Source: Pseudomonadales bacterium
Lineage (GTDB): Bacteria > Pseudomonadota > Gammaproteobacteria > Pseudomonadales > Azotimanducaceae
Assembly (NCBI GenBank): GCA_965208525.1
Contig: OZ242340.1
Span: 2,711,737-2,775,736, forward strand
Direction: 5' to 3'
DNA length: 64,000 nucleotides
A program made the translations under genes and the position numbers. Numbering within the stretch: the stretch's first letter is position 1; each line of letters begins with the position of its first letter. The notes beneath the pieces were generated by a model. That model was not told the DNA's origin. It was given only the letters and a program-made list of their open reading frames with translations, and searched no databases. Shown here one piece after another: positions 240 to 53,875 of the stretch.

Positions 240-363
240 GCGTGTCGCTGACGCTCCCGGCGTCTCGCCGGAATGCGGCAGGCAGCACAAGGTTTTGTGG
301 GGCATGTTGGATTCCCGTTCGACGTGGGCGTAGACTTCGGCAACCGTTCGCCGGAGTCCGACC

Positions 364-4045: not shown

Positions 4046-4051
4046 TTGCAG

Positions 4052-5128: not shown

Positions 5129-5146
5129 GCGGCAGCACCGCGGCCT

Positions 5147-27200: not shown

Positions 27201-27582
27201 CGACCCACACTTCCCGCCGATCGGGGCGCACAGCAACGCTCACCGGATCGACTCCGACATTGATGCGAATCACGACCGCGCCAGTTCTGGCGCGGATTAC
27301 ATCGAGCGTGTCCGCCGGCGTGTTGACCACATAGACATAGCCACGGCTGTAGGCGATGGGGTTCGCGTGGGGACTCGCGAAGGTGGGGTGCCCCACATTG
27401 TCGCTGATGGCAAGCTGGACGCCGGCATTGGCGTACGCCGGGCCGGCCGACATAAGCGCCGTGATGAGCCACAGCAAACCGCCACGGACGGGCGCAAGAA
27501 GCCGTCCGCCTATGGGCTCGTCGCTGGCGATCCGCACCACGAAGCCAAGGCCTTGGAGAAGACGACGTCCGAAACGTAGCAC
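24256..27582 (-). CDS. Large secreted multidomain protein: YVTN-type beta-propeller, then a di-haem cytochrome-c-peroxidase-like region (two CxxCH), then a C-terminal CBM4/9-like carbohydrate-binding module
   Basis: Signal-like 'LLWLITALMSAGPAYA'. Repeats of the 'YVYVVN...VSVIDA' beta-propeller type. 'FSCESCH' and 'TCGACH' are ~130 aa apart. The C-terminal ~150 aa resemble a beta-sandwich CBM. Confidence 0.65.
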   Translation of the reverse strand: MLRFGRRLLQGLGFVVRIASDEPIGGRLLAPVRGGLLWLITALMSAGPAYANAGVQLAISDNVGHPTFASPHANPIAYSRGYVYVVNTPADTLDVIRARTGAVVIRINVGVDPVSVAVRPDRREVWVVNHVSDSVSVIDARPTSSTFHQVVHTVQDLDAGTYATNFDEPVGIAFASNSRKAYVALSPANRVAIIDVATRSVAGHLPIRAQEPRALAVHGDRLFVLPFESNNQSQLSGCLEDDIDGDTCTFDAVEHVFTNNNVLSTHYDADIVKNPELPDRDMFVFNTRTDRPQQIVESLGTLLYGLAIDSQGRVFIAQTDARNVENGRAGTEGHGLAEMENRAFLNQITRVDCSVRCGVPTFFDLEPLPPSHPETGQALATPFGIQVSPDDSTLVVTAAGSDKLFTMDADTGEVLGRVSVESTPRGVALVSDRTGALRHAWVLNAVANTVSQVNLADTANPALLRTVTLADPTPEIVKQGRMAFNDADASSTGTFSCESCHPDNHTDQLIWVLETPVCDVDGCTQIPPRLTMPAKGLRDTQPYHWDGIPGDPYGGNNTQSINAPVEPNCSIEDPASCTRVLVDGSMATTMCDVGNCPANDEGKLGLLDAAARDALAEYLLSVPFAPAPSRAYHNVLSQSAQDGFFEFNFINDTSEPNTGTQTCGACHRMPFLVSTNTPGTGMEAPTWRGAYERWMITPQARLNIIDLLQLVNMDTSFPERDMWILAGASDEIWDMVLEGSTGFSGSFARQVTLNEDTAELAQTAHMLGALERSANQGAVMLQAEGLRFDEDGAATPVALEYRKSRYRNRPGDPRLALSRARIVRDAAAGSLLLTITARAGVNTTSDHAQPALWPVGEIEAQTRGVDIPFLAGELTLRFNARHIESGATVFVDGRKASATLACESGDLPACDDEVFLVTLARAPTHGGLHFLQLQNRQGLFSNDMLFFSEQTALRPRRGNLITSGGTFNNQGQFRDNWNTVEIATDSIEVRNGAVRVNLRESSEQPWHAQISHSVMVIGGQEYTLCYRAKATSSRHITAYMDTNLDNWSNISGGQFRAELTTSYARFRHTFTVEETDLTGRVAFDFAQSSADVDIDDVGVYEGASCGTP

Positions 27583-36676: not shown

Positions 36677-36805
36677 CCCCGGCGACCATGGCTGGCGCCT
36701 AGACGCTGCCTGCCGAGGATGTTGAGGACGCCTGTTCGGTGCGGGTGATGGCGTGAAGGGCCGGCGCGCTGAAGCGGTGCGGATTGAGGGAAGGGAAGGG
36801 GCAAG

Positions 36806-38236
36806 ATGAAGCTGTTGGTTGCGAACCGTGGGGAGATAGCGATCCGCGTGATGCGTGCGGCGGCGGAGCTGGGGATTTCTACGGTTGCGATTGCGCCGAG
36901 GGACGACGCCGGGTCGCTGCACACGGGCAAGGCGGACGAGTTCGTGACGCTTGAGGGGGCGGGCGCGTCGGCCTACCTCGACATCGGGCAGGTGGTGGGG
37001 GCGGCGCGGGAGACGGGCTGCGACGCGGTGCATCCGGGCTACGGCTTCCTGTCGGAGAACGCGGAGCTGGCGCGGGCGTGCTCCGAGGCGGGGCTGACGT
37101 TCGTGGGGCCGCGGGAGGAGACGCTGCGGCTGTTCGGCGACAAGGCGCGCGCCCGGTCGGCGGCGTCGGCGGCGGGGGTGCCGGTGATCCGTGGCATCGA
37201 CCACGCGGTGTCGCTGGACGAGGCGGAGGCGTTCTTCGCGAGCCTGGGCGCTGGCAGCGCGATGATGCTGAAGGCGGTGGGCGGCGGCGGCGGTCGGGGC
37301 TCGCGCATGGTGGAGCGTGCGGAGGAGGTTGCGGAGGCGTTCGAGCGCTGCCGCGCGGAGGCGGAGGCGAGCTTCGGCAACGGCGAGCTGTACGTGGAGG
37401 AGTTCATGCGCCGGGCGCGGCACGTGGAGGTGCAGGTGCTGGGCGACGGCAGCGGCGCGGCCCAGCATCTCGGCGAGCGGGAGTGCAGCGTGCAGCGGCG
37501 TTTCCAGAAGATCGTCGAGGTGGCGCCGGCGCCGGGTCTTGCCGAGGGGGTGCGGGAGGCGGTGATCGAGGCGGCGGTTCGGTTCGCCTCGGGCGTGGAC
37601 TACCTGAGCGCCGGCACGTTCGAGTTTCTGGTGGACGTTTCGGCGGACGCCTCGGGGGGCGGGTTCGCGTTCATCGAGACGAACGCGCGGCTGCAGGTGG
37701 AGCACACGGTGACGGAGGAGGTCACCGGGGTCGACGTCGTGGCCTCGCAGCTCCGGCTGGCGCAGGGCGCGACGATTTCCGACCTGGGGCTGGACGCGCC
37801 GCCTGCCCTGCGGGGCTACGCGATCCAGTCGCGGGTGTGCATGGAGTCGGTTCGCGAAGACGGTTCCATCGTTCCGACCGGCGGGGTGCTGACGGCGTAC
37901 GAGGCGCCGAGCGGCCCGGGTGTGCGCACGGACGGCTTCGGCTACGGCGGCTACGAGACGAGCCTGAACTACGACCCGCTGCTGGCGAAGGTGATCGCGC
38001 ACTCGCCGTCGCCGGACTTCGGCGACGCCGTCGCCCGCTCGCTGCGGGCGCTGGCGGAGTTCCGGGTCGAGGGGGTGGAGACGAACATCGCCTTCCTCGA
38101 GAGCATCCTGCGCCACCCGGACTTCGCCGCCGCCGAGGTGCACACCCGCTTCGTCGACGAGAACATGGCCAGCCTCGCCGCCGCCGAGCAAGGCGCACGC
38201 TTCGTCACCCCGCCCGGATTCGAGCCGCAGGCGGCA
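36806..38236 (+). repeat. Direct repeat unit A (1.43 kb; identical bar 1 mismatch seen to 40296-41726)
   Basis: Compared by eye across the region. Overlapping spurious ORFs 37078..38340 vs 40568..41830 and 37722..38198 vs 41212..41688 are identical or differ by 1 aa. One substitution was seen (NYDP/NYDS). Confidence 0.9.
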
Positions 38237-40273
38237 GACGGATTCGCCGGTGCCAGAGTCGAGGATGCCCGCGACCCCCTTGCACTTTTCCTGCACGACA
38301 CCCGCGTCAAGTCCGAACAGGACGACGAGGACGAAGCTGAAAGCGGCCCGGTCGTCGTGCCGGCCCCGGTTCCCGGCGAGGTGCGCGCCGTGCATGTCCT
38401 CGCCGGAGACGAGGTGCTGACGGGCCAACCGCTCGCAACCATTCACTCGCTGGAGATCGACCACATCGTTCGCGCTGACGAGGGCGGTGCCGTGGAAACC
38501 GTCGCCGTGGACGCCGGCAATGTCGTCCGCGCCGGCGACTCCTTGCTGCAAATCGTCAAGTCCGACATGGCCGGCCGTTGGGCCGAACCTGCTGCGGAGG
38601 CAGACTTCGACACCCGCCGCTCCGACCTGGCCCTCGTGGACCAGCGCCGCACCTACATCGAAGACGACTTCCGCGCCGAACGCATCGGTCGACGCCACGC
38701 CAAGGAGCAGCGCAGCCCGCGCGAGAACATCGAACACCTCATGGACGGCACCTTCCGCGAGTACGGTCCCCTCGTCACCGCGGCAAGCTGGCAGAAGCAG
38801 GAATGGCTGCGGGAGACGACCCAGGCGGATGGCCTCGTCATGGGCATCGGCAGCATCAACGGCGATCTCTTCGATGCCGACGCCTCCCGCGCGGTGGTGG
38901 TTCACTACGACTACATGGTGGTGGCGGGCACCCAGGGCGGGCGCGGCCACTACAAGCAGGATCGCATCTACGAACTGGCCGGACGCTTCCGGTTGCCCCT
39001 GATCCTCTTTGCCGAGGGCGGCGGCGGTCGACCCGGCATCAGCGGCGGCGAACGGGCAGAAGCCGTGGACATCGCCATCGAGGCGGGGCTGCGCAAGCTT
39101 GGCGAGAAGGCGCCGCCCGGTTCCCGCGCCAGCGCCGTGGACGTGGCCGGTCGCGGCGGCGGGGGCGTGCCGGTGGACTCCTACACCTTCACCAAGCTCT
39201 GCGAGCTGAGCGGCCTGGTGCCCTTGGTGGGCGTCAACTCCGGGCGCTGCTTCGCCGGCAACACGGTGATGCTGGCGTCCTGCGATGTCATCATCGCGGC
39301 GGAGAACTCCACCATTGGCCTTGGTGGCCCTGCCATGATCGAAGGCGGGGGCCTCGGCATCTACACGCCGGAAGAAGTGGGTCCCATGTCCTTCCAGGTG
39401 CCAAACGGTGTCGTGGACATCCTCGTCAAGGACGACGAGGCGGCCATCGAGACGGCGAAAAAATACCTTTCCTACTTCCAGGGCGCGGTGGATAGCTGGG
39501 AGACGCCGGACCAGCGCCGCCTCCGCGCGATCATTCCGGAAGACCGCAGCGCGCTCTACGACATGCGCGAGCTCATCGCCACTTTGGCGGACGAAGACTC
39601 CATCCTCGAAATCCGCGAAGCCTTCGGCGTCGGGATCATCACCGCCTTCATCCGCATCGAAGGCGAGCCGATGGGCCTCATCGCCAATAACCCCGCGCAC
39701 CTATCTGGCGCCATCGACAGCGATGCCGCCGACAAGGCGGCGCGCTTCCTGCAACTCTGCGACACCTTCGACATCCCGGTGCTGTCGCTGATGGACTGTC
39801 CCGGCCTCATGCCGGGGCCGGAGTACGAGCAGGCAGCACTGCTTCGCCACTCAGGCCGCATGTTCGTCACCGGCGCCAACATGACCACGCCCATGTTCGG
39901 CGTCGTGGTGCGCAAGGCCTATGGAATGGGCGTGCGAGCGATGTGCGGCGGCAGCTCGCTGGAACCGTTCTTCACCGTCGCCTGGCCCACGGCAGAGTTC
40001 GCCGACATGACCATCGACGGCAGAGTCAATCTCATGTACGGCGAGGAACTGGCCGCGATTGAGGATGCAGCGGAACGAGAAGCGGTGCACCAACGCCTGA
40101 TGGATGCCCACGTCGATCGAGTGCGCGCGGTGAACGCGGGCGGCACCAACTACGGCATCGACGACGTCATCGACCCGGCCGACACCCGAGCGTGGATCGC
40201 GCAGGGGCTTAGGAGCGTGCCGAAACCCCCGCCGCGGGAGGAAAAGAAGCGACCCAATGTGGACACGTGGTAG
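36806..40273 (+). CDS. Single-chain biotin-dependent acyl-CoA carboxylase paralogue 1 (BC - degenerate BCCP - carboxyltransferase); BCCP lacks the biotin-acceptor lysine
   Basis: ATP-grasp biotin carboxylase (aa 1-450), a biotinyl-like domain with 'ATIHSLEIDHIV' instead of AMKM, and a PccB/AccD-like CT domain ('VVVHYDYMVVAGTQGG', '...RKAYGMGVRAM'). 1155 aa. Confidence 0.85.
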   Translation: MKLLVANRGEIAIRVMRAAAELGISTVAIAPRDDAGSLHTGKADEFVTLEGAGASAYLDIGQVVGAARETGCDAVHPGYGFLSENAELARACSEAGLTFVGPREETLRLFGDKARARSAASAAGVPVIRGIDHAVSLDEAEAFFASLGAGSAMMLKAVGGGGGRGSRMVERAEEVAEAFERCRAEAEASFGNGELYVEEFMRRARHVEVQVLGDGSGAAQHLGERECSVQRRFQKIVEVAPAPGLAEGVREAVIEAAVRFASGVDYLSAGTFEFLVDVSADASGGGFAFIETNARLQVEHTVTEEVTGVDVVASQLRLAQGATISDLGLDAPPALRGYAIQSRVCMESVREDGSIVPTGGVLTAYEAPSGPGVRTDGFGYGGYETSLNYDPLLAKVIAHSPSPDFGDAVARSLRALAEFRVEGVETNIAFLESILRHPDFAAAEVHTRFVDENMASLAAAEQGARFVTPPGFEPQAADGFAGARVEDARDPLALFLHDTRVKSEQDDEDEAESGPVVVPAPVPGEVRAVHVLAGDEVLTGQPLATIHSLEIDHIVRADEGGAVETVAVDAGNVVRAGDSLLQIVKSDMAGRWAEPAAEADFDTRRSDLALVDQRRTYIEDDFRAERIGRRHAKEQRSPRENIEHLMDGTFREYGPLVTAASWQKQEWLRETTQADGLVMGIGSINGDLFDADASRAVVVHYDYMVVAGTQGGRGHYKQDRIYELAGRFRLPLILFAEGGGGRPGISGGERAEAVDIAIEAGLRKLGEKAPPGSRASAVDVAGRGGGGVPVDSYTFTKLCELSGLVPLVGVNSGRCFAGNTVMLASCDVIIAAENSTIGLGGPAMIEGGGLGIYTPEEVGPMSFQVPNGVVDILVKDDEAAIETAKKYLSYFQGAVDSWETPDQRRLRAIIPEDRSALYDMRELIATLADEDSILEIREAFGVGIITAFIRIEGEPMGLIANNPAHLSGAIDSDAADKAARFLQLCDTFDIPVLSLMDCPGLMPGPEYEQAALLRHSGRMFVTGANMTTPMFGVVVRKAYGMGVRAMCGGSSLEPFFTVAWPTAEFADMTIDGRVNLMYGEELAAIEDAAEREAVHQRLMDAHVDRVRAVNAGGTNYGIDDVIDPADTRAWIAQGLRSVPKPPPREEKKRPNVDTW

Positions 40274-40295
40274 GGAAGCAGGGGGAGAGGCAAAG

Positions 40296-41726
40296 ATGAA
40301 GCTGTTGGTTGCGAACCGTGGGGAGATAGCGATCCGCGTGATGCGTGCGGCGGCGGAGCTGGGGATTTCTACGGTTGCGATTGCGCCGAGGGACGACGCC
40401 GGGTCGCTGCACACGGGCAAGGCGGACGAGTTCGTGACGCTTGAGGGGGCGGGCGCGTCGGCCTACCTCGACATCGGGCAGGTGGTGGGGGCGGCGCGGG
40501 AGACGGGCTGCGACGCGGTGCATCCGGGCTACGGCTTCCTGTCGGAGAACGCGGAGCTGGCGCGGGCGTGCTCCGAGGCGGGGCTGACGTTCGTGGGGCC
40601 GCGGGAGGAGACGCTGCGGCTGTTCGGCGACAAGGCGCGCGCCCGGTCGGCGGCGTCGGCGGCGGGGGTGCCGGTGATCCGTGGCATCGACCACGCGGTG
40701 TCGCTGGACGAGGCGGAGGCGTTCTTCGCGAGCCTGGGCGCTGGCAGCGCGATGATGCTGAAGGCGGTGGGCGGCGGCGGCGGTCGGGGCTCGCGCATGG
40801 TGGAGCGTGCGGAGGAGGTTGCGGAGGCGTTCGAGCGCTGCCGCGCGGAGGCGGAGGCGAGCTTCGGCAACGGCGAGCTGTACGTGGAGGAGTTCATGCG
40901 CCGGGCGCGGCACGTGGAGGTGCAGGTGCTGGGCGACGGCAGCGGCGCGGCCCAGCATCTCGGCGAGCGGGAGTGCAGCGTGCAGCGGCGTTTCCAGAAG
41001 ATCGTCGAGGTGGCGCCGGCGCCGGGTCTTGCCGAGGGGGTGCGGGAGGCGGTGATCGAGGCGGCGGTTCGGTTCGCCTCGGGCGTGGACTACCTGAGCG
41101 CCGGCACGTTCGAGTTTCTGGTGGACGTTTCGGCGGACGCCTCGGGGGGCGGGTTCGCGTTCATCGAGACGAACGCGCGGCTGCAGGTGGAGCACACGGT
41201 GACGGAGGAGGTCACCGGGGTCGACGTCGTGGCCTCGCAGCTCCGGCTGGCGCAGGGCGCGACGATTTCCGACCTGGGGCTGGACGCGCCGCCTGCCCTG
41301 CGGGGCTACGCGATCCAGTCGCGGGTGTGCATGGAGTCGGTTCGCGAAGACGGTTCCATCGTTCCGACCGGCGGGGTGCTGACGGCGTACGAGGCGCCGA
41401 GCGGCCCGGGTGTGCGCACGGACGGCTTCGGCTACGGCGGCTACGAGACGAGCCTGAACTACGACTCGCTGCTGGCGAAGGTGATCGCGCACTCGCCGTC
41501 GCCGGACTTCGGCGACGCCGTCGCCCGCTCGCTGCGGGCGCTGGCGGAGTTCCGGGTCGAGGGGGTGGAGACGAACATCGCCTTCCTCGAGAGCATCCTG
41601 CGCCACCCGGACTTCGCCGCCGCCGAGGTGCACACCCGCTTCGTCGACGAGAACATGGCCAGCCTCGCCGCCGCCGAGCAAGGCGCACGCTTCGTCACCC
41701 CGCCCGGATTCGAGCCGCAGGCGGCG
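40296..41726 (+). repeat. Direct repeat unit B of the 1.43-kb BC-domain repeat
   Basis: See unit A. Confidence 0.9.
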
Positions 41727-43517
41727 GCAGCGCAGCAGGCCGAGCAGGCGGTGGGGCCAGAGGGGTCCGTGGGCCTGGTTGCCCCCATGCAAGGAACCAT
41801 CGTCGAGATTGGCGTTGCCATTGGCGATGAGGTGCGCGTTGGTCAAGCCGTGGCCGTCGTTGAGGCAATGAAGCTGCAGCACGACATCCGGGCGGACCGC
41901 AACGGTGTTGTCTGCGCCGTCTCCATGGCGGAAGGCGACGTGGTGCGCGAGGGCTTTCCCATCGTCTTCCTGCACGAGTCCGATGTGGAAGGCGGCGCCC
42001 TCGAGGGCGATGCAGGAATGGACCTCGATCTCCTCCGGGGCGACATGCAGGAGGTCAACGAACTCATCGACCAAACCCTCGATGCCGCCAAGGCAGAAGC
42101 GGTGGCTGGGCTGCGCGAGAGCAACCGGCGCACTCCTAGGGAGAATCTCGACGATTTCCTGGACGAAGGCTCCTTCCGCGAGTTCGGTCCCCCAGCGGCC
42201 GGCTCCGCCGCCGGCGGCACCATCATGGGCTTCGGCAGCGTCAATGCCGACCTCGTCGGAGACGAGCGCAGCCGCGTGGCGGTGGTACACAGCAACTACC
42301 CAACCGCCGCCTACACCCACGGTCACTATCGTCAGGAGCAGATTCACGAGATGGCCAGGGACTGGCGCGTCCCTGTGGTGCTCTTCTCCGAAGGGGAGGG
42401 TGGCCCGCACGGCAACGTCGGCGGCGTCGGCATGGACGCCAGCGTCTTCACCGATTTCGCGAGGCTGTCGGGGCTGGTGCCGCTCATCGGCGTCAACACC
42501 GGCGACTGCTTCGCCGGCAATGCCGCCCTCCTCGCCTGCTGCGACGTCATCATCGCCACGGAGGACTCCACCATCGGCATGAACGGCCCGGCCGTCGTCG
42601 AGTCGAGCGGATTGGGCACGCACAGTGCCGCGGAACTCGGCGGCATGTCGTTCCAGGCAGCCAACGGCAGCGTCGACATCGTGGTTGAGGACGACGCGGC
42701 CGCGGTGGCCACCGCCAAGCAATATCTCTCTTACTTTCAGGGGCCTGTGTCGGACTGGGAAGCGCCAGACCAGCGCCGGATGCGGCATGTCATCCCGGAA
42801 GACCGCGTGCGCGCCTACGACATGCGCGAAATCATCGAGACCTTGGCCGACGAGGGCTCGGTGCTGGAGATCCGCAAAGACTTCGGCATCGGCGTCATCA
42901 CCTCCTTCATCCGCGTGGAAGGTCAGCCGATGGGCGTCGTGGCCAACAACCCGGCGCACCTCGCCGGCGCCGTGGACAGCCCAGGGGCAGACAACGGCGC
43001 CCGCTTCTTCCAGCTCTGCGACGCCTTCGACATCCCGGTGGTGGTGTTCATGGACTGTCCGGGGATCATGGTGGGCCCAGACCACGAGCGCACGGCCCTG
43101 GTCCGCCACGCCGTGCGCCTGTTCAACATTGGCGCCAACTGCACGGCGCCCATGTTCGGCATCATGGTGCGCAAGGCATACGGGCTCGGCGTGCAAGCCA
43201 TGATCGGCGGCGCCTCCTCGGTACCGTTCCTGACGGTGGCATGGCCCACGGCAGAATTCGCTGGCATGAACATCGACGGTGCCGTCAAGCTCTCCGCCCG
43301 CCGCGAACTGGCCGCCATCGAAGATGCCGAAGAGCGCAAGGACGCCTACGAACGACGCGTCGCCCAAGGCTATGAGTCGGCAAGAGCCGTCAACTCCGGC
43401 GCAAGATACGTGATCGACCCAGCCGACACCCGCGCCTTCATCGCTCGAGGCATGAAGAGCCTCCCACCAACCCCACCCCGCACGAAGAAGAAGCGCCCCT
43501 ATGTTGACACGTGGTAA
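40296..43517 (+). CDS. Single-chain biotin-dependent acyl-CoA carboxylase paralogue 2 (BC-BCCP-CT) with intact biotinylation motif
   Basis: Same BC domain as paralogue 1. BCCP has 'VVEAMKLQHDI'. The CT domain is ~55-60% identical to paralogue 1 and lacks its ~40-aa insertion. Start taken at the MKLLVAN ATG with a purine-rich RBS, not the upstream 40257 ATG that overlaps paralogue 1. Confidence 0.85.
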   Translation: MKLLVANRGEIAIRVMRAAAELGISTVAIAPRDDAGSLHTGKADEFVTLEGAGASAYLDIGQVVGAARETGCDAVHPGYGFLSENAELARACSEAGLTFVGPREETLRLFGDKARARSAASAAGVPVIRGIDHAVSLDEAEAFFASLGAGSAMMLKAVGGGGGRGSRMVERAEEVAEAFERCRAEAEASFGNGELYVEEFMRRARHVEVQVLGDGSGAAQHLGERECSVQRRFQKIVEVAPAPGLAEGVREAVIEAAVRFASGVDYLSAGTFEFLVDVSADASGGGFAFIETNARLQVEHTVTEEVTGVDVVASQLRLAQGATISDLGLDAPPALRGYAIQSRVCMESVREDGSIVPTGGVLTAYEAPSGPGVRTDGFGYGGYETSLNYDSLLAKVIAHSPSPDFGDAVARSLRALAEFRVEGVETNIAFLESILRHPDFAAAEVHTRFVDENMASLAAAEQGARFVTPPGFEPQAAAAQQAEQAVGPEGSVGLVAPMQGTIVEIGVAIGDEVRVGQAVAVVEAMKLQHDIRADRNGVVCAVSMAEGDVVREGFPIVFLHESDVEGGALEGDAGMDLDLLRGDMQEVNELIDQTLDAAKAEAVAGLRESNRRTPRENLDDFLDEGSFREFGPPAAGSAAGGTIMGFGSVNADLVGDERSRVAVVHSNYPTAAYTHGHYRQEQIHEMARDWRVPVVLFSEGEGGPHGNVGGVGMDASVFTDFARLSGLVPLIGVNTGDCFAGNAALLACCDVIIATEDSTIGMNGPAVVESSGLGTHSAAELGGMSFQAANGSVDIVVEDDAAAVATAKQYLSYFQGPVSDWEAPDQRRMRHVIPEDRVRAYDMREIIETLADEGSVLEIRKDFGIGVITSFIRVEGQPMGVVANNPAHLAGAVDSPGADNGARFFQLCDAFDIPVVVFMDCPGIMVGPDHERTALVRHAVRLFNIGANCTAPMFGIMVRKAYGLGVQAMIGGASSVPFLTVAWPTAEFAGMNIDGAVKLSARRELAAIEDAEERKDAYERRVAQGYESARAVNSGARYVIDPADTRAFIARGMKSLPPTPPRTKKKRPYVDTW

Positions 43518-43562
43518 GCCTCGGAACGCTTCAAGGCCACCCTGACGCCTTCCAACGCAACA

Positions 43563-43791
43563 CGTTGATAAACCAACAATGTGGCTCGAAGCCGAGCCAA
43601 CACCAACGTGCGGGCCGGATGGCGCGGTCCCACACGCCTTTCGGAGCGAGGGCCTTTTCACGCTCCTCCCGCCGAAGGCGAAGCAACCAAGGGCCGGAAG
43701 CTACAACCAGCCGTCTCCCCGCGAGACAGGCCTGGCAGACGGCGTGGATGGCTGTCTGTTTCCTGCCGTCCCTAGCCCTGCGTCCCTCCTG
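43563..43791 (+). repeat. Non-coding repeat element, copy 2 (short form), starting 'cgttgataaacc'
   Basis: Aligns with 13345-13661 except for a ~90-bp deletion. Lies in the 340-bp gap between carboxylase-2 and the first CoA-transferase gene. Confidence 0.7.
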
Positions 43792-43856
43792 GAGTAAGAA
43801 CTCGCTCCCGCTCGCAGTCCGCTATTCTTGCCTGCCGTGCAGGGAAGGGTTAGGGG

Positions 43857-44996: not shown

Positions 44997-46216
44997 GCCG
45001 CCCCGGCCTGCTCGAAGGCGTGCGCGTCGTGGATCTCTCGATGGGCTGGGCCGGCCCCTTGGCGGCGCGGCATCTCGCCGACATGGGCGCTGATGTCATC
45101 AAGGTGGAAGGTTGCGTCCGCTTCGACTGGTGGCGTGGCTGGGAGGCCACCCAGGAGTGGATCGATGAGGGTGGCGCCGAGATGTCGCCGGCGTTCAACA
45201 TGGTGAACCGCAACAAGCGCGACCTGACGCTGGACCTCTCAACTTCGGAAGGGGCGGACCTGCTGTTGCGCTTGGTGGCCATCTCCGACGTCGTGGTGGA
45301 GAACTACTCCGCCGGCGTGCTGCCGAAGCTTGGCCTCGACTACCCCGTGCTGGCGAAGGCCAACCCCGAAGTCGTGATGATCTCGATGCCCGCTTTCGGC
45401 AGCAACGGCCCATGGCAAGGCTATCGAGCCTACGGTTCAACGGTCGAGCAGGCATCCGGCTTGCCGCATCAGTCCGGCGAGGAGTCCATGCCGCCCACCA
45501 TGACTCACGTCGCGCTTGGCGATTCGGTGGGTGGCCTCAACGGCGCGGCGGCGCTGCTCACGGCACTCCGGGCCCGGCGCAGAACCGGCAAGGGCCAGCA
45601 CCTCGACCTGTCGCAGTCGGAATGCCTGTTTCCGCTCGGCATCAAAGGCATCCTGACGCAGTCTGTCACCGGCTCGCCGCCGCAGCGACTCGGAAATCGC
45701 TCCCTCGAACACGCGCCGCACGGGGTCTATCCCTGCGCCGGCGACGACGAGTGGATCGTCATCCAGGTTCGCTCGGAAGCGGAGTGGAAGGCGTTCGAGG
45801 CGGCGAGTGGCATTGGCGGATTTGGCGATGCTGCGGATCGGCTGGCACGGCGGGAGGAACTCGACGACGCCGTGCGAGCTTTCACCTCGACGCAGGTTGT
45901 CGAGCTCTTGATGCCAGAGTTGCAGGAAGCGGGCGTCCCGGCGGCACGCTTGGCCGGGGGGCTGGAACTCACCACGGACCCGCACCTGGCGGCGCGGGGC
46001 TTTTGGAAGATGATGCAGCGCGACTATGTCGGCGAGCTGCCGCACCCGGCGCCGCCCTATCGCGTTGGCGAAGCGCCGTTCGACATCGACCGTCCGGCGC
46101 CGACCCTCGGCCAACACAACGTTGAGGTGCTGTCGGAAGTGCTGGGCCTCGCGCCCGACGAGATCGCGGCGTTGGCGGAGAAGGGCGTCATCGGCACCAA
46201 GCCGCGACTGCCATGA
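44993..46216 (+). CDS. Family III CoA-transferase (CaiB/BaiF family)
   Basis: 'GVRVVDLSMGWAGPLAARHLADMGADVIKVE'. 4-bp overlap with the upstream gene (translational coupling). Confidence 0.85.
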   Translation: MSRPGLLEGVRVVDLSMGWAGPLAARHLADMGADVIKVEGCVRFDWWRGWEATQEWIDEGGAEMSPAFNMVNRNKRDLTLDLSTSEGADLLLRLVAISDVVVENYSAGVLPKLGLDYPVLAKANPEVVMISMPAFGSNGPWQGYRAYGSTVEQASGLPHQSGEESMPPTMTHVALGDSVGGLNGAAALLTALRARRRTGKGQHLDLSQSECLFPLGIKGILTQSVTGSPPQRLGNRSLEHAPHGVYPCAGDDEWIVIQVRSEAEWKAFEAASGIGGFGDAADRLARREELDDAVRAFTSTQVVELLMPELQEAGVPAARLAGGLELTTDPHLAARGFWKMMQRDYVGELPHPAPPYRVGEAPFDIDRPAPTLGQHNVEVLSEVLGLAPDEIAALAEKGVIGTKPRLP

Positions 46217-48597
46217 CGGCGCCGCCGCTCACCGGCACACGCGTCGTCGATGCCACCACACGCTGGGGCGAAATGGCGGGACGCATCCTCGCGGAGCTTG
46301 GTGCCGACGTCATCAAGATCGAGCCGGCCGCTGGGTGTGATTCCCGCCGCGTGGGGCCATTCCACGAGGGAGAGTCGCTGTACTGGGCGGCGATGGGCGC
46401 CGGCAAGCACAGCGTGGTTGCGGACGACCCGGAGCCGTATCTCTCGGACGCGGATGTATTCATCGAGTCGGGCTTCCGCGGGGCGCTGAATGAGCGCTTT
46501 CCGCGCTTGATCCATGCCTGCGTGACGCCGTTTGGCCTCGGTGGCCCGTTGGCGGATGCGCCAGCCGCCGAGGTCACCGTCGAAGCCGCGGGGGGCCTCG
46601 TCAACCTGCAAGGCAACGGCGACCGACCGCCGCTGCCCATGGGCGCAATGCCGCAGGCTGCGTTCCATGCCGGCGCGCAGGCGGCGGCGGACATCGTGGT
46701 GGCGCTCAACGCGCGGGAAGGCTCGGGGCTGGGGCAACGGCTGGATGTTTCCGCGCAGGCATGCATCGTCTGGACTCTGATGAATGCCACCGGCTTTCCG
46801 CCGAACACCGGGCGCAACCCACCGGGCACCAGCGAGTTTCGTGGCCAGTTGCCGCCCTTGGTCGCACCGGGTCTCAAGCTGCCGAACATCGTGCGCTGCC
46901 GCGACGGCCATGCCCAGCTTCGCTTGCAGATGCCGGTGATCGGCGAGCGCACCTTCCATGCGCTACTGCGTTGGGCGGAGGAAAGCGGGCTCGACGTGCC
47001 CGACGCGTTGCGCGGACGAGACATGACCGGCTGGCTGGCGGCGCTGGCAGCCGGCGAGGTGAAAGCGGAAGACGTGGGCATCGCGGCGGAACGTGTCGTG
47101 GATGTCTTGGCGCTGCACACGAAGCGCGAGATCCAGTCGTTCTCGGCGAAGCACGGTCTCACCCTTGCCGCCATCTACACGGTCGCCGATCTCGCCACCG
47201 ATCCGCAGCTCGAAGACCGTGACTACTGGGTGCATTGTGACGGGCGGCGCTACGCAGGTCCGTTCGCCCGGCTGTCCCGAACGCCGCTGTCGCGTGCCCG
47301 CCACGCCCCGGCGATCGGCGAGTCCATGGCGAGCACGCGAACTGCGACCGATGTGCAGGACAAGACGCCCGCCGATCAGGCCAACCTGGACGCGCGCCGG
47401 CAGGCACCTTCTTCGTCGCGGCGTGTTTCGTCGGCTTTCGAGGGGCTGCGCGTGGCCGACTTCAGTTGGGTGGGTGTCGGTCCCATGATCGGCAAGGCGC
47501 TGGCGGATCATGGCGCGACGGTGGTGCGCATCGAGTCCTCGAGCCGGCTCGACCTCCTGCGCACGTCGGCACCCTTCAAGGACGGCAAGCGCCACCCCGA
47601 CCGGGCGCAGTTCATGGCCAACTTCAACACCTCCAAGCGCGGCATCACGCTGGACCTCAAGAATCCGGAGGGCCAACGGGTCGCCCGGCGCATGGCGGAT
47701 TGGGCAGACGTGGTGCTCGAGAGCTTCTCGCCGGGCACGATGGCTCGCTTTGGCCTCGACTGGGACGCGCTCTCGAGCGAGCGCGACGACCTCATCATGC
47801 TGTCCACCTGCATGCGAGGCCAGACGGGGAGGGAGCGAACCTACTCCGGTTTCGGCGGCCAGGGCGCAGCCATTGCGGGGCTCTTTGGGCTGGTCGGCTG
47901 GCAAGACCGTCCGCCTTCCGGGCCGTGGGGCGCCTACACGGACTTCATCACCCCTCGCTTCGCCACCGCTACCCTCGGCGCCGCGCTCCTGCACAGGCAG
48001 CGCACGGGCAAGGGGCAGTACATCGATGTCTCGCAGATCGAGTGCGGCATTCGCTTCCTCGAACCGTTGGTGCTCGAACACGCGGCCAACGGCAACGTCG
48101 CCACCCGATTGGGACAGGGCTCGCCACAGCTCGATCCACACGGCGTCTTCGCCTGTCGTGGCACCCATCGCTATGTCGCCGTGGGCGTGGAGACAGACGC
48201 CGAGCGCGAGGCGCTGGCGAGTGCCATCGGGCATGCTTGCGCAGATGCCAGCGCCGGTCTCGATGGGGCGTTAACGTCGTGGTGCGCGTCGCGCGATGCC
48301 TTCGCCGCCGCAGCCTGCTTGCGCGATCACGGCGTGCCGGCGCATGTCGTCGCTCGCCCTGCGGACCTCTACCACGACGAGCAGCTGGCGCACCGTCACT
48401 TCTTCGTGACGCTGAACCATCCTGTCATGGGTCCCACGCCCTACGACGGCCCGGCCACCATCTACTCCCGTACGCCGCCGCGCCTGCGGACGCCAGCGCC
48501 ATGTCTCGGCCAGCACAATCGCGAGGTGATGGGTGGGATGCTGGGCATCGACGGCGCCGAATACGAACGCCTGCGCGCGGCCGGCGCCTTCGGCTAG
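46213..48597 (+). CDS. Double-domain family III CoA-transferase (two CaiB-like modules fused)
   Basis: First module 'GTRVVDATTRWGEMAGRILAELGADVIKIE'. Second module begins 'FEGLRVADFSWVGVGPMIGKALADHGATVVRIE'. 794 aa. 4-bp overlap with the upstream gene. Confidence 0.8.
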   Translation: MTAPPLTGTRVVDATTRWGEMAGRILAELGADVIKIEPAAGCDSRRVGPFHEGESLYWAAMGAGKHSVVADDPEPYLSDADVFIESGFRGALNERFPRLIHACVTPFGLGGPLADAPAAEVTVEAAGGLVNLQGNGDRPPLPMGAMPQAAFHAGAQAAADIVVALNAREGSGLGQRLDVSAQACIVWTLMNATGFPPNTGRNPPGTSEFRGQLPPLVAPGLKLPNIVRCRDGHAQLRLQMPVIGERTFHALLRWAEESGLDVPDALRGRDMTGWLAALAAGEVKAEDVGIAAERVVDVLALHTKREIQSFSAKHGLTLAAIYTVADLATDPQLEDRDYWVHCDGRRYAGPFARLSRTPLSRARHAPAIGESMASTRTATDVQDKTPADQANLDARRQAPSSSRRVSSAFEGLRVADFSWVGVGPMIGKALADHGATVVRIESSSRLDLLRTSAPFKDGKRHPDRAQFMANFNTSKRGITLDLKNPEGQRVARRMADWADVVLESFSPGTMARFGLDWDALSSERDDLIMLSTCMRGQTGRERTYSGFGGQGAAIAGLFGLVGWQDRPPSGPWGAYTDFITPRFATATLGAALLHRQRTGKGQYIDVSQIECGIRFLEPLVLEHAANGNVATRLGQGSPQLDPHGVFACRGTHRYVAVGVETDAEREALASAIGHACADASAGLDGALTSWCASRDAFAAAACLRDHGVPAHVVARPADLYHDEQLAHRHFFVTLNHPVMGPTPYDGPATIYSRTPPRLRTPAPCLGQHNREVMGGMLGIDGAEYERLRAAGAFG

Positions 48598-51865: not shown

Positions 51866-51985
51866 GGGCGGCCTCGCGACTCTCGGGGGGCCCCGCGGGC
51901 GGACGCTGGCATTTGCCGAAACCGCCGAGCGTGTTGACAATGCACGGGCATGGCAGATTACCGTTCGGACACGGGTGCCCCTCGG

Positions 51986-53875
51986 ATGGGCAAGCACCGC
52001 CGGGGGCGTGAGCAACCGGCGGAGGGGGCCTCCCTTGAACTGCCGGCGGCAACCGAGGCCGTTTCAGTGGATTTCGAGGCCTTGCTCAAGAACCTGACCA
52101 CGAAGCCTGGCGTGTATCGCATGGTGGGGGCAGGTGGTGAGGTGCTCTATGTCGGCAAGGCGCGCAACCTCAAGGCGCGGGTGACCAGCTACTTCCGGGC
52201 ATCCGGCCTCACCACCAAGACGATGGCCATGGTGGCCCGGCTCGAAGGCGTGGAAGTGACGGTCACGTCCAGCGAGACCGAGGCGCTGCTGCTCGAACAG
52301 AGCCTCATCAAGGAACATCGACCGACGTACAACGTCGTGTTGCGGGACGACAAGTCCTACCCCTACATCCACCTCACCGACCACGCCTTTCCGCGGCTGA
52401 CGCTGTATCGCGGCTCGCGCAAGGCGCCGGGGCGCTACTTCGGCCCGTATCCGAGCGCCGGCGCGGTGCGCGACAGCATCAACGTGCTGCAGAAGCTGTT
52501 CGGCATTCGCCCGTGCGAGGACGGCTTCTACAAGAATCGCTCGCGTCCGTGCCTGCAACACCAGATCGGCCGTTGCAGCGCACCGTGCGTGGGGCTCGTC
52601 ACCCGCGAGCGCTACGCCGAAGACCTGCGCCTCGCGCAGATGTTCCTCGAAGGGCGCAGCCAAGCCATCCTGGAAGAGTTCAAGGGGCGCATGGAGGAAG
52701 CGTCGTCGAAGCTGGAGTTCGAGCGGGCGGCGCGATTTCGCGACCAGATCCAGCACTTGCGGCGGGTGCAGGAGAACCAGTATGTGCATGGCGATGGCGG
52801 CGACGTGGACGTATTTGGCGTGGCCCTCGCCTCGGGGCAAGCCTGCGTGCAGGGGCTCTTCGTGCGTGGCGGTCGTCTCCTTGGCAACCGCAACTGGTAT
52901 CCGCGGAACGAGTTGGGCCTCGGCGAGCAGGACCTCTTGTTCGCGTTTCTGTCGCAGTATTACCTCGGCGGTGCGGAGCGCGAACTGCCGAAGTCGGTGG
53001 TGGCGCCCCTTGCCGCCGCGGACGCGGAGCTGCTTGCGCGAGCGTTGGCGGAGAAGGCCGGGCGGGCGGTGGCCGTGGCGAGCGTGGTGCGGTCGCAGCG
53101 GGCGCGCTGGGCGAGCATGGCGCGGGACAATGCGGAGCTTTCGCTGCAAACGCTGCTGGCGGACCGCAAGAACGTGCTTGGCCGCTTCGTGGCGTTGCAG
53201 GAGGCGCTCGAATGGGAAGACACGCCGCAGCGGCTCGAATGCTTCGACATCAGCCACTCGGCTGGCGAGGCGACGGTGGCATCCTGTGTCGTGTTCGACA
53301 CCGAGGGGCCGTTGAAGTCCGACTATCGTCGCTTCAACATTGAGGGCGTGCCTCGGGGCGACGACTACGGTGCCATGGAGCAAGCGCTTCGGCGACGTTA
53401 CACGCGCCTCAAGCAAGGCGAGGGCGCGCTGCCGGACGCCCTCGTGATCGATGGCGGCAAGGGCCAGGTGGGACGGGCCGTGGAAGTGCTGGAAAACCTG
53501 CAAATCGACGACGTGGCGGTGCTGGGCGTCGCCAAGGGGCCTTCACGCAAGGCCGGTCTCGAATCGGTGCTGCTTGCCGGGCGGGGGGAGCTTGCGCTGC
53601 CACCGAACGGTCCCGCCATGCATCTGTTGCAGCACATCCGCGACGAGGCGCATCGCTTCGCCATCACTGGGCATCGCGGCCGCCGGCAGAAGAAGCGGCG
53701 CCAGTCGGTGCTGGACGGCATACCCGGCGTGGGCGCGAAGCGAAAGCGACAACTGCTGACGCATTTCGGTTCGGTGGCGTCGGTGCAGGGGGCCAGCATC
53801 GAGGAGATCGCCAAGGTGCCGGGCATCAGCACCAAGCTCGCGGACGAGATTCATGGAACGCTCCATGCGACTTGA
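51986..53875 (+). CDS. uvrC: Excinuclease ABC subunit C
   Basis: 'KPGVYRMVGAGGEVLYVGKARNLKARVTSYF' (GIY-YIG), a UvrBC-interaction region and C-terminal RNaseH-like/HhH domains. Start uncertain (alternative GTG at ~52067). Confidence 0.9.
   Translation: MGKHRRGREQPAEGASLELPAATEAVSVDFEALLKNLTTKPGVYRMVGAGGEVLYVGKARNLKARVTSYFRASGLTTKTMAMVARLEGVEVTVTSSETEALLLEQSLIKEHRPTYNVVLRDDKSYPYIHLTDHAFPRLTLYRGSRKAPGRYFGPYPSAGAVRDSINVLQKLFGIRPCEDGFYKNRSRPCLQHQIGRCSAPCVGLVTRERYAEDLRLAQMFLEGRSQAILEEFKGRMEEASSKLEFERAARFRDQIQHLRRVQENQYVHGDGGDVDVFGVALASGQACVQGLFVRGGRLLGNRNWYPRNELGLGEQDLLFAFLSQYYLGGAERELPKSVVAPLAAADAELLARALAEKAGRAVAVASVVRSQRARWASMARDNAELSLQTLLADRKNVLGRFVALQEALEWEDTPQRLECFDISHSAGEATVASCVVFDTEGPLKSDYRRFNIEGVPRGDDYGAMEQALRRRYTRLKQGEGALPDALVIDGGKGQVGRAVEVLENLQIDDVAVLGVAKGPSRKAGLESVLLAGRGELALPPNGPAMHLLQHIRDEAHRFAITGHRGRRQKKRRQSVLDGIPGVGAKRKRQLLTHFGSVASVQGASIEEIAKVPGISTKLADEIHGTLHAT

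What the first reader, a model, noticed from the sequence alone, without database searches (positions are those of the whole stretch)
36806..43517. Two tandem single-polypeptide BC-BCCP-CT acyl-CoA carboxylases
Most bacteria encode biotin carboxylase, BCCP and carboxyltransferase as separate subunits. Here two adjacent ~1100-aa genes each fuse all three domains in BC-BCCP-CT order, and both end in the same 'KKKRPxVDTW' tail. They sit downstream of LLM-oxidoreductase, hydrolase and SDR genes. Immediately downstream are three family-III CoA-transferases and a WYL regulator. This looks like an uncharacterised carboxylation/CoA-transfer catabolic module, not fatty-acid ACC. The substrate cannot be read from sequence.
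Basis: partly seen in the sequence, partly recalled or inferred. Interest (0 to 1): 0.8.

Follow-up and report, generated by a model that had tools for sequence, protein, structure and literature searches.

The report
Paired half-degenerate single-chain acyl-CoA carboxylase genes
Two adjacent genes each encode a complete-looking biotin carboxylase of the known single-chain LCC type, but the first cannot carry biotin and the second has a divergent transferase half, so they most likely build one two-protein enzyme, and their ATP-using domains are repeatedly copied onto each other.

Summary
C1 (36806-40273, 1155 aa) and C2 (true start 40296, to 43517, 1073 aa) both read BC-BCCP-CT. The fusion itself is not new: both align end to end with the solved single-chain long-chain acyl-CoA carboxylase MapLCC (4rcn, E 1e-253).

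1. C1 has Glu where the biotin-bearing Lys should be (HSLEID, against EAMKLQ in C2). 100 of 102 relatives also lack it.
2. C2 keeps the Lys but has a divergent CT N-subdomain (AGTQGG becomes AAYTHG, plus deletions).
3. This long/short pair is adjacent in 25 of 25 genomes examined, all uncultured marine or sponge Gammaproteobacteria and Dehalococcoidia. The two Lys-bearing long-type relatives have no partner gene.
4. The first 1.43 kb (the BC domain) of the two genes differs by one base, while the rest is about 55% identical in protein. CT trees split by type and BC trees cluster by genome, which indicates recurrent gene conversion confined to BC.

Best reading: an obligate heteromeric LCC-type carboxylase produced by duplication and complementary degeneration. 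Substrate is unknown. The link to the CoA-transferases is not conserved. I rate it a new variant of a known kind, of moderate to high interest.

The parts
36806..40273 (+). C1, the 'long' (L-type) paralogue, 1155 aa: BC, conserved linker motif, Lys-less BCCP-like domain, CT with an insertion
   Evidence: ORF, translation, Pfam, PDB 4rcn and 5fif. There are 102 full-length relatives at 58-95% identity.
36803..38235 (+). Direct repeat copy 1, covering the BC domain of C1 (aa 1-477)
   Evidence: Ungapped comparison with 40293-41725 shows one mismatch at offset 1170 (Pro391 against Ser391). Identity falls to about 30% immediately outside the repeat. The repeat finder gives a spacing of 3490.
38240..38311 (+). 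L-type linker motif GFAGARVEDARDPLALFLHDTRVK (aa 479-502), function unknown
   Evidence: Nine residues are invariant in 86 sequences and dN/dS is about 0. It is absent from S-type proteins and from MapLCC but present in the singleton P0118. No Pfam or PDB match.
38342..38563 (+). BCCP-like domain of C1 without a biotinylation site. Glu550 (codon 38453-38455, GAG) occupies the biotinyl-Lys position.
   Evidence: Weak Pfam Biotin_lipoyl match, 31.9 bits. Alignment to C2 and to MapLCC. This column reads E 83, G 16, D 1, K 2 among 102 relatives. The AF2 model keeps the beta-sandwich (pLDDT about 86) with the hairpin tip at residues 549-550, and the only Lys in the domain is K585. dN/dS is 0.19-0.43.
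38603..40270 (+). CT domain of C1. It keeps YDYMVVAGTQGGRGHYKQDR and GGGGRPG, and has a variable 30-45 aa insertion (aa 745-786, nt 39038-39163).
   Evidence: Pfam Carboxyl_trans, split into two stretches by the insertion. Alignments. Invariant columns. dN/dS is 0.03-0.10.
40274..40295 (+). 22-nt spacer between the C1 stop and the C2 start, purine-rich (GGGAAGCAGGGGGAGAGGCAAAG)
   Evidence: Sequence shown. The short gap is consistent with co-transcription and coupled translation, which is an inference.
40296..43517 (+). C2, the 'short' (S-type) paralogue, 1073 aa: BC, canonical BCCP, CT with a divergent N-subdomain
   Evidence: Translation, Pfam, and an end-to-end match to 4rcn at E 1e-253.
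40293..41725 (+). Direct repeat copy 2, covering the BC domain of C2
41769..41975 (+). BCCP domain of C2 with the canonical EAMKLQH motif. The biotinyl-Lys is K526 (codon 41871-41873, AAG).
   Evidence: Pfam Biotin_lipoyl 51.8 bits. Lys is present in 25 of 25 S-type orthologues. dN/dS is 0.02-0.08.
42018..43514 (+). CT domain of C2. AGTQGG is replaced by AAYTHG, GGGGRPG by GEGGPHG, a 12-aa segment (SWQKQEWLRETT) is deleted, and 5 aa are deleted near the C-terminus.
   Evidence: Alignments. The column of L-type G708 reads Y 20, G 3, D 1, T 1 in S-type proteins, against G in 25 of 25 L-type proteins.

Best explanation
C1 and C2 are the two subunits of one hetero-oligomeric, LCC-type biotin-dependent acyl-CoA carboxylase. 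They are not two separate enzymes.

Origin. An ancestral complete single-chain LCC-like gene was duplicated in tandem, and the two copies then degenerated in complementary ways. That ancestor carried a biotinylatable BCCP, an intact CT and the linker motif, and forms like it still exist as singletons.
- The long copy (C1) lost the biotinyl-lysine but kept a canonical BC and a very strongly conserved CT N-subdomain.
- The short copy (C2) kept a strongly conserved, biotinylatable BCCP. It lost the linker motif and diverged at CT N-subdomain positions that are invariant in the long copy, in MapLCC and in the D. radiodurans enzyme.

Mechanism, inferred by analogy with the MapLCC hexamer. In that enzyme domains are swapped between chains and CT sites lie at N/C' dimer interfaces. 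Here the biotin on C2 would be carboxylated at a BC domain of either chain. It would then deliver CO2 to an acyl-CoA at a composite CT site formed across a C1:C2 interface, most likely with the N-subdomain of C1 and the C-subdomain of its partner.

BC homogenisation. The BC domains have not specialised, so they tolerate being overwritten. Gene conversion running from the start codon to the end of BC (about aa 477) recurs in many lineages and has just happened in this genome.

Status of each step. Shown: the sequence features, the co-occurrence and the conversion pattern. Inferred: heteromer formation, the stoichiometry, and which half-sites are active. The substrate is unknown; an acyl-CoA carboxylated at the alpha-carbon is a guess from CT similarity.
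For: 1. Family. Both proteins match MapLCC end to end. Their CT domains are closest to 4rcn and 5fif.
2. C1 has Glu at the biotinyl-Lys position. 100 of 102 long-type relatives lack Lys there, while the BCCP fold is retained.
3. C1 nevertheless keeps a canonical BC, which only makes sense if it acts on biotin carried by another chain. In lineages without recent conversion (L040-L042) the long-type BC is the canonical one. The short-type BC there carries changes at positions invariant in 86 long-type sequences: H206, R225/E226 and Q297.
4. Complementary features hold in all 25 genomes. Long type: no Lys, G708 kept. Short type: Lys kept, G708 changed to Y, D or T in 22 of 25.
5. Long and short genes are adjacent on the same strand in 25 of 25 loci with enough flank, in two gene orders and in two phyla, while the flanking genes vary.
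6. Natural control. The only two Lys-bearing long-type proteins (P0118, P0102) have no partner gene. P0118 combines an S-like BCCP with an L-like CT N-subdomain.
7. CT trees show two reciprocally monophyletic clades with mirrored topology, r = 0.98, reached by 0 of 2000 permutations.
8. Both CT domains and the short-type BCCP are under strong purifying selection (dN/dS 0.02-0.11). The long-type BCCP-like domain is relaxed (0.19-0.43).
9. Gene conversion. The repeat is 1431 nt with one mismatch. Within-genome BC identity is 0.47-1.00, against 0.53-0.67 for CT. In the BC tree the nearest neighbour is the own-genome partner for 34 of 50 sequences, against 0 of 50 in the CT tree. Tracts always stop at about aa 470-480.
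10. Precedent for CT cores built from paralogues: the mycobacterial AccD4(2)AccD5(4) core.
Against: - No physical evidence of a complex exists. AF2 could only be run on a monomer, and it gave low confidence for the linker and for several conserved CT loops.
- Both oxyanion-type motifs (CFAGN and KAYG[ML]G) are intact in both proteins. C2's CT may therefore be fully active, and 'degenerate' may be too strong a word for it.
- C1 could instead use a free-standing BCCP encoded elsewhere. Whole genomes were not examined.
- The MapLCC architecture is recalled from memory, because Tran et al. 2015 could not be read.
- P0102 sits on a contig of only 5 kb, so its singleton status rests on one gene on each side.
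- BC shows unexpectedly high dN/dS (0.14-0.24). The model accommodates this through redundancy but did not predict it.
Confidence: 0.65

Rival explanations
1. C1 and C2 are two independent homomeric LCC isozymes with different acyl-CoA specificities, kept side by side. This is essentially the first reader's view.
For: Both are full-length and intact. Both have conserved CT domains under purifying selection. Their CT domains have differed by about 43% since before the sampled lineages split. The residue I recall (from memory, not checked here) as lining up with the PccB specificity position differs: Arg in L, Gln in S.
Against: C1 and 100 of 102 relatives lack the biotinyl-Lys, so C1 cannot act as a carboxylase by itself. 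Co-occurrence is strict, and Lys is retained only in the unpaired relatives.
Confidence: 0.08
2. C1 is a non-catalytic regulator or scaffold, comparable to plant BADC proteins. On this view it joins or caps C2 hexamers and tunes their activity rather than contributing catalytic parts.
For: C1 has a Lys-less BCCP-like domain under relaxed constraint. The pairing is conserved. Non-biotinylated BCCP look-alikes that inhibit ACCase are known in plants; this is from my own knowledge and was not checked here.
Against: C1's BC and its CT N-subdomain are the better-conserved, canonical versions. The segments YDYMVVAGTQGGRGHYKQDR and GGGGRPGISGGE are invariant and CT dN/dS is 0.03-0.10. In unconverted lineages it is the short-type BC that deviates at conserved positions. 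A pure regulator would not need these kept.
Confidence: 0.12
3. C1 works with a separate free-standing BCCP, or acts as a biotin-independent enzyme such as an acyl-CoA decarboxylase or transcarboxylase half. On this view its adjacency to C2 reflects a shared pathway rather than a shared complex.
For: This was not excluded, because only about 15-23 kb around each pair was examined.
Against: No small BCCP gene lies next to the pair in any locus listed. The complementary losses and the mirrored trees fit a complex better. BC-domain interchange between C1 and C2 implies the two BC domains do equivalent jobs.
Confidence: 0.1
4. The 1.43-kb identity is an assembly artefact (collapsed or chimeric repeat), or C1 is a decaying pseudogene copy.
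For: A perfect repeat inside a metagenome-derived sequence invites suspicion.
Against: The two copies differ by one base and sit in frame within two genes that diverge strongly downstream. BC nucleotide identity of at least 97% over nearly the whole BC domain recurs in six other independent assemblies (L002, L009, L012, L019, L024, L036), and intermediate levels of identity occur in others. C1 is an intact ORF with CT dN/dS of 0.03-0.10 and has orthologues in two phyla.
Confidence: 0.03

Closest known systems
[quoted passage not shown] 2015 Nature). Also the Deinococcus radiodurans single-chain carboxylase (PDB 5fif CT, 5h80 BC).
   Same: Same BC-BCCP-CT order in a chain of about 120 kDa. C2 aligns over residues 2-1051 to MapLCC residues 4-1071 at E 1e-253. 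The CT domains of both proteins are closest to these two structures. The motifs AGTQG, GGGGRPG, CFAGN and KxYGxG are shared with C1.
   Different: LCC is described as a homo-hexamer of one biotinylated chain (PMC6491548). Here there are two co-inherited paralogues. One has no biotinylation site, an added 30-45 aa CT insertion and a conserved linker motif absent from MapLCC. The other has a divergent CT N-subdomain. The BC domains evolve in concert.
[quoted passage not shown]
   Same: Its CT core is built from two paralogous CT proteins with different roles, as an AccD4(2)AccD5(4) heterohexamer. This is the nearest precedent for a mixed CT core.
   Different: There BC-BCCP (AccA3) and CT are separate polypeptides, an epsilon subunit organises the complex, and no carrier domain is degenerate. 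CT similarity to the window proteins is much lower (E about 1e-48).
Plant BADC proteins (biotin attachment domain-containing, non-biotinylated BCCP paralogues). This comparison is from my own knowledge.
   Same: A BCCP-fold domain that has lost the biotinyl-lysine yet is conserved and associates with a carboxylase.
   Different: BADCs are small stand-alone inhibitors of heteromeric ACCase. Here the Lys-less domain is embedded in a chain that also carries conserved BC and CT domains.
Domain-restricted concerted evolution of tandem paralogues by gene conversion (a general phenomenon, for example bacterial tuf genes). This comparison is from my own knowledge.
   Same: A near-identical tract lies within otherwise diverged paralogues. 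Paralogues cluster by genome for that tract only. The events recur independently in different lineages.
   Different: Here the tract coincides exactly with one catalytic domain of a multidomain enzyme. It stops at the same domain border in every lineage, next to domains that have specialised.

Membership tests
Single-chain LCC (MapLCC-type) carboxylases | BC, BCCP and CT fused in that order in one chain of about 1100 aa | tested here: met
   Pfam domain order in both proteins.
Single-chain LCC (MapLCC-type) carboxylases | End-to-end sequence homology to a solved LCC, with the CT domain closer to LCC than to PCC, ACC, MCC or GCC CT domains | tested here: met
   4rcn at E 1e-253 over the full length. 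For the C1 segment from linker to C-terminus (aa 478-1155): 4rcn 8e-154, 5fif 2e-140, next best 12S at 1e-59, PCC beta about 1e-50, MCC and GCC beta about 1e-30. This ranking rests on similarity. No formal phylogeny with outgroups was built.
Single-chain LCC (MapLCC-type) carboxylases | Biotinylatable lysine in an (A/V)MK(M/L) hairpin of the BCCP domain | tested here: not met
   Met for C2 (EAMKLQ, K526). Not met for C1 (HSLEID, E550), which has no other Lys in the hairpin. C1 alone therefore cannot be a functional LCC.
Single-chain LCC (MapLCC-type) carboxylases | Homo-hexameric holoenzyme | not testable with these tools
   Only monomer prediction was available. The sequence and co-occurrence evidence points to a heteromer instead.
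Single-chain LCC (MapLCC-type) carboxylases | Activity on acyl-CoAs with a preference for long chains (C2-C16, per PMC6491548) | not testable with these tools
   This needs an enzyme assay. The neighbourhood gives no consistent hint.
Housekeeping multi-subunit acetyl-CoA carboxylase (AccABCD) | CT made of AccA and AccD type subunits, with accB and accC as separate genes, reaching the NCBIfam equivalog scores | tested here: not met
   Only a weak partial ACCA match (36 bits). All NCBIfam accC and ACC models score below their cut-offs and cover the BC domain only.
Tandem paralogues homogenised by gene conversion | A near-identical tract with sharp borders inside diverged paralogues, tree discordance between the tract and the rest, and independent recurrence | tested here: met
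   1431 nt with one mismatch, against about 30% ungapped identity outside. BC and CT trees disagree. Tract profiles in 25 genomes. No formal GENECONV or RDP test was run.
Paralogue pair formed by duplication-degeneration-complementation | Each copy has lost a different ancestral sub-function, an unduplicated relative keeps both, and the copies are always co-retained | tested here: met
   Complementary losses. The singleton P0118 has both Lys and AGTQGG. The pair is retained in 25 of 25 genomes. The functional consequences of the losses are inferred, not measured.

The most novel reading that the evidence does not exclude
This is a previously undescribed holoenzyme class: an obligate hetero-oligomer of two full-length single-chain carboxylase paralogues. 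One chain supplies the only biotin arm. The other supplies the canonical BC, the acyl-CoA-binding CT half, a pseudo-carrier domain and a strictly conserved docking-type linker peptide. The shared BC domain is kept interchangeable by recurrent, domain-exact gene conversion. The system is confined to uncultured marine and sponge-associated Gammaproteobacteria and Dehalococcoidia and moves between phyla as a two-gene unit. It may carboxylate an unusual acyl-CoA, for example an anionic one, given the Arg at the position I recall (from memory, not checked here) as the PccB specificity site, in the degradation of recalcitrant organic matter.
Probability: 0.45. Interest if true: 0.75.

Novelty: new variant of a known kind. 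Interest (0 to 1): 0.62.

Why it matters
Biotin-dependent carboxylases serve as a model for how multidomain enzymes with a swinging carrier domain are assembled. Single-chain LCCs are known only as homo-hexamers. A conserved pair in which one chain has given up its carrier lysine and the other has altered half of its transferase domain would be a natural experiment in subfunctionalisation inside a domain-swapped oligomer. It would predict a new architecture with half the biotin arms.

The BC-only gene conversion is a clean case of selection allowing homogenisation of the unspecialised domain and blocking it at the border of the specialised ones. That pattern could be used as a sequence-only marker of which domains of paralogous multidomain enzymes remain interchangeable.

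In practice, automated annotation calls these proteins carbamoyl-phosphate synthase large subunit, pyruvate carboxylase or acetyl/propionyl-CoA carboxylase (names). The pair occurs in abundant uncultured sponge and ocean bacteria, where CO2-fixing and acyl-CoA steps in the breakdown of organic matter are poorly understood.

Tried and rejected
- Tran et al. 2015 (the primary LCC paper) could not be read by DOI or PMC id. Its content is cited from memory and through PMC6491548.
- Exact look-up of C1 in the assembly index found nothing.
- Literature searches for heteromeric or non-biotinylated LCC paralogues found nothing relevant. That is absence of evidence in an open-access subset only.
- The Rfam scan of 28-52 kb gave no hits. 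The promoter and terminator scan showed nothing above shuffles. No regulatory element is proposed.
- The L-type linker motif has no Pfam or PDB match even at E of 10 or below.
- The AF2 monomer model of C1 (pLDDT 73.5) confirmed the BC and BCCP-like folds. It left the linker and several conserved CT loops at pLDDT below 50, so it says nothing about docking. No fold search was run, because the sequence matches to solved structures were already decisive.
- The exhaustive representative search with the linker plus BCCP-like segment returned mostly generic biotinyl or lipoyl domains and fragments. It gave no usable estimate of family size.
- A conserved operon with LLM, SDR, hydrolase and CoA-transferase genes was considered and rejected, because it is conserved only among the closest relatives.
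- Pseudogene and assembly artefact were considered and rejected (see the rival explanations).
- The S-type family was not searched separately in the large protein database. The 25 S-type sequences recovered from loci were judged sufficient.


Full report
**1. Observation.**
The window is 64-73% G+C. It carries two adjacent ORFs on the + strand at 36806-40273 and 40257/40296-43517. Both translate without interruption. In both, Pfam finds Biotin_carb_N, CPSase_L_D2, Biotin_carb_C, Biotin_lipoyl and Carboxyl_trans in that order.

The second gene almost certainly starts at 40296 (MKLLVANRGE), 22 nt after the stop of the first. Identity with gene 1 begins 3 nt before that ATG, and every orthologue starts there.

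**2. Family.**
C2 aligns from residue 2 to 1051 with the solved long-chain acyl-CoA carboxylase of M. avium paratuberculosis (4rcn, E 1e-253). The C1 segment from the linker to the C-terminus (aa 478-1155) matches, in order:
- 4rcn at 8e-154;
- the D. radiodurans single-chain carboxylase CT (5fif) at 2e-140;
- 12S transcarboxylase at 1e-59;
- PCC beta and AccD5 at about 1e-50;
- MCC and GCC beta at about 1e-30.

No NCBIfam equivalog cut-off is reached.

The fused architecture is therefore a known kind. LCC is described as a homo-hexamer active on C2-C16 acyl-CoAs (PMC6491548). The primary paper, Tran et al. 2015, could not be read. This is not the housekeeping ACC.

**3.
(a) The two proteins are identical over residues 1-477 except P391/S391, and then drop to about 45-57% identity. 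At the DNA level, 36803-38235 and 40293-41725 differ at one base. Identity is about 30% immediately on either side.

(b) C1's carrier domain reads ...ATIHSLEIDH... where C2 has ...AVVEAMKLQH... and MapLCC has ...EAMKMQH.... Glu550 replaces the biotinyl-lysine. The only Lys in the domain is K585, far from the hairpin tip. The AF2 model keeps the beta-sandwich fold.

(c) C1 has a 24-residue linker motif (GFAGARVEDARDPLALFLHDTRVK) and a 30-45 aa insertion after GGGGRPGISGGE. C2 and MapLCC have neither.

(d) C2's CT N-subdomain differs in three ways:
- AAYTHG replaces the AGTQGG found in C1, MapLCC and the D. radiodurans enzyme;
- GEGGPHG replaces GGGGRPG;
- there are a 12-aa and a 5-aa deletion.

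**4. These features define two conserved orthologue groups that always travel together.**
A database search with the C-terminal two-thirds of C1 found more than 100 clusters at 58-95% identity. In 100 of 102 full-length hits the Lys column holds E (83), G (16) or D (1).

Context look-ups and a scan of 185,579 species genomes returned 34 loci. All are uncultured MAGs. They belong to marine or sponge-associated Gammaproteobacteria (Pseudomonadales, Ca. Azotimanducaceae) and to Dehalococcoidia/Chloroflexota.

In every one of the 25 non-redundant genomes with enough flank, a long Lys-less gene and a short Lys-bearing gene are adjacent on one strand. The order is usually long then short; a basal clade has short then long. 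In those 25 genomes:
- the long protein never has the Lys and always has G708;
- the short protein always has EAMKLQH;
- the short protein has Y, D or T at the G708 column in 22 of 25.

Flanking genes are not conserved beyond four close relatives. Family-III CoA-transferases adjoin the pair in 6 of 23 loci. A 95%-identical relative lacks them. Such transferases are hugely expanded in these organisms (PMC5395668). I therefore do not regard the CoA-transferases as part of a demonstrable module.

**5. Natural control.**
The only two long-type relatives that retain the lysine (P0118 and P0102) have no partner gene. P0118 was checked in three contigs with 8 kb on each side. P0102 sits on a 5-kb contig between a membrane protein and an SDR.

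P0118 combines the features that are split between the two paralogues:
- the linker motif;
- an S-like BCCP (EAMKLQH...);
- an L-like CT N-subdomain (AGTQGG, GGGGRPG) without the large insertion.

Its CT is roughly equidistant from both clades, at 0.70 and 0.65 identity. This is what an un-subfunctionalised ancestor should look like.

**6. Evolutionary pattern.**
CT trees split cleanly into long and short clades with mirrored topologies. The nearest neighbour is of the same type in 50 of 50 cases. The mirror-tree correlation is r = 0.98, reached by 0 of 2000 permutations. The duplication therefore predates all sampled lineages. The pair has also crossed between phyla as a unit.

BC trees instead cluster the two copies of a genome together; the nearest neighbour is the own partner in 34 of 50 cases. 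Within-genome BC identity ranges from 0.47 to 1.00, while CT stays at 0.53-0.67.

Codon-aligned nucleotide profiles show that the homogenised tract always runs from the start codon to about aa 470-480. It never enters the linker, BCCP or CT. Tract ages differ between lineages:
- at least 97% identity over nearly the whole BC domain in the window, L002, L009, L012, L019, L024 and L036;
- lower, intermediate identity in many other lineages;
- none in L040-L042.

This is recurrent gene conversion confined to BC.

In the unconverted basal pairs the short-type BC sits on long branches. It is changed at positions invariant in 86 long-type sequences: H206, R225/E226 and Q297. The long-type BC is canonical, and all converted BCs group with the long type.

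dN/dS between the window and five relatives:

| Region | dN/dS |
|---|---|
| BC (both copies) | 0.14-0.24 |
| Long CT | 0.03-0.10 |
| Short CT | 0.025-0.11 |
| Short BCCP | 0.02-0.08 |
| Long BCCP-like domain | 0.19-0.43 |
| Linker motif | about 0-0.1 |

**7. Interpretation.**
A protein with a conserved biotin carboxylase domain but no biotin of its own must act on biotin carried by another chain. The always-adjacent partner carries a highly conserved biotin domain. The partner's own CT N-subdomain, and in basal lineages its BC, are the divergent versions.

The simplest reading is one hetero-oligomeric LCC-type carboxylase produced by tandem duplication and complementary degeneration. C2 would be the sole biotin carrier, and CT sites would be composite across C1:C2 interfaces. 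In known CT hexamers, active sites lie between the N-subdomain of one chain and the C-subdomain of its dimer partner. That point is established for PCC beta and 12S, and I give it from my own knowledge.

A paralogue-mixed CT core has a precedent in mycobacterial AccD4(2)AccD5(4).

BC, being unspecialised and possibly redundant (two BC domains per biotin), tolerates overwriting. Conversions that extend into the specialised domains would presumably be purged, which would explain the sharp common border.

Heteromer formation, stoichiometry and the identity of the active half-sites are inferred, not shown. Both oxyanion-type motifs (CFAGN, KAYGxG) persist in both chains. C2's CT may thus be altered rather than dead, and two kinds of site remain possible.

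**8. Substrate.**
The substrate is unknown. The CT similarity suggests carboxylation of an acyl-CoA at the alpha-carbon. From memory, not checked here, one CT residue lines up with PccB Asp422, the specificity position. It is Arg in most long-type proteins and Gln in all short-type proteins. That is only a lead.

**9. Verdict.**
The real finding is a conserved pair of half-degenerate LCC paralogues with domain-exact concerted evolution. I could not find this described in the searchable literature.

I classify it as a new variant of a known kind. My confidence that the two proteins work as one enzyme is about 0.65. Interest is 0.62.

Noticed in passing
window 38240-38311 (C1 aa 479-502): The strictly conserved linker peptide GFAGARVEDARDPLALFLHDTRVK lies between BC and the Lys-less carrier domain. 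Nine residues are invariant in 86 sequences and dN/dS is about 0. It is present in long-type proteins and in the Lys-bearing singleton P0118, and absent from short-type proteins and MapLCC. It has no Pfam or PDB match, and AF2 gives low confidence there. Its function is unknown.
   Followed up: partly
window 36806-38236 and 40296-41726, compared with L001, L008, L009, L010, L012: The BC domain evolves 3-5 times faster in dN/dS (0.14-0.24) than either CT domain (0.03-0.11). This is unusual for biotin carboxylases, in which BC is normally the most conserved part. It is possibly a redundancy effect.
   Followed up: partly
L040, L041, L042 (short-type genes at about 1972-5478, 1015-4335 and 2252-5494): In the basal clade with short-then-long gene order and no BC conversion, the short-type BC carries substitutions at positions invariant elsewhere. 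RHVEVQ becomes R(L/Q)(I/V)EVQ in L040 and L041 (L042 keeps RHVEVQ); GERECS becomes G(T/L)(C/I/V)D(C/S)S and RLQVEH becomes RLEVEH in all three. The ancestral short-type BC may have been impaired before conversion replaced it.
   Followed up: partly
L043-L045 (gene at 8001-11402 of L043) and L046 (1411-4911): These are unpaired, Lys-bearing long-type relatives (P0118, P0102), each followed by an SDR gene. P0118 looks like the un-subfunctionalised ancestor. P0102 already has the CT insertion but keeps the Lys (EAIKLHH).
   Followed up: partly
L031, L032, L035, L036 (Dehalococcoidia) against L002, L038 (marine and Ca. Azotimanducaceae): In both CT trees the Dehalococcoidia pairs nest among gammaproteobacterial pairs. 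The two-gene unit has therefore been transferred between phyla.
   Followed up: no
whole window; closest record L009 (JAPPDJ010000077, Gammaproteobacteria bacterium IRC4_bin_23): The window comes from an uncultured gammaproteobacterium (Pseudomonadales-like) related to sponge-associated MAGs. It is only about 90-92% nt identical to its nearest relative across the locus. Ordinary chromosomal genes (BipA 5147-6952, PepN-like 9017-11695, UvrC 51950-53875) show that it is chromosomal.
   Followed up: partly
window 46213-48597: This 794-aa protein is made of two family-III CoA-transferase domains in tandem. Similar double-domain proteins of 760-858 aa flank the carboxylase pair in L002 and L005.
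   Followed up: no
window C1 aa 1044 (nt 39935-39937) and C2 aa 967 (nt 43194-43196): From memory, not checked here, this residue lines up with the PccB specificity position (Asp422). It is Arg in 77 of 102 long-type proteins and Gln in 25 of 25 short-type proteins. It may hint at an anionic substrate.
   Followed up: no
window 273-3815 (+) and 24256-27582 (-): Two very large ORFs with little or no annotation. The 1180-aa ORF has no Pfam hit and may not be a real gene in this high-GC DNA. The 1108-aa protein has only weak lactonase/YncE beta-propeller matches, and its homologue is also present near the pair in L001.
   Followed up: no
window 43518-43856: The 339-nt gap between C2 and the first CoA-transferase contains a perfect 7-bp hairpin (43582-43599) without a T-run and has no Rfam match. 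The carboxylase pair may be a transcription unit separate from the transferases.
   Followed up: partly
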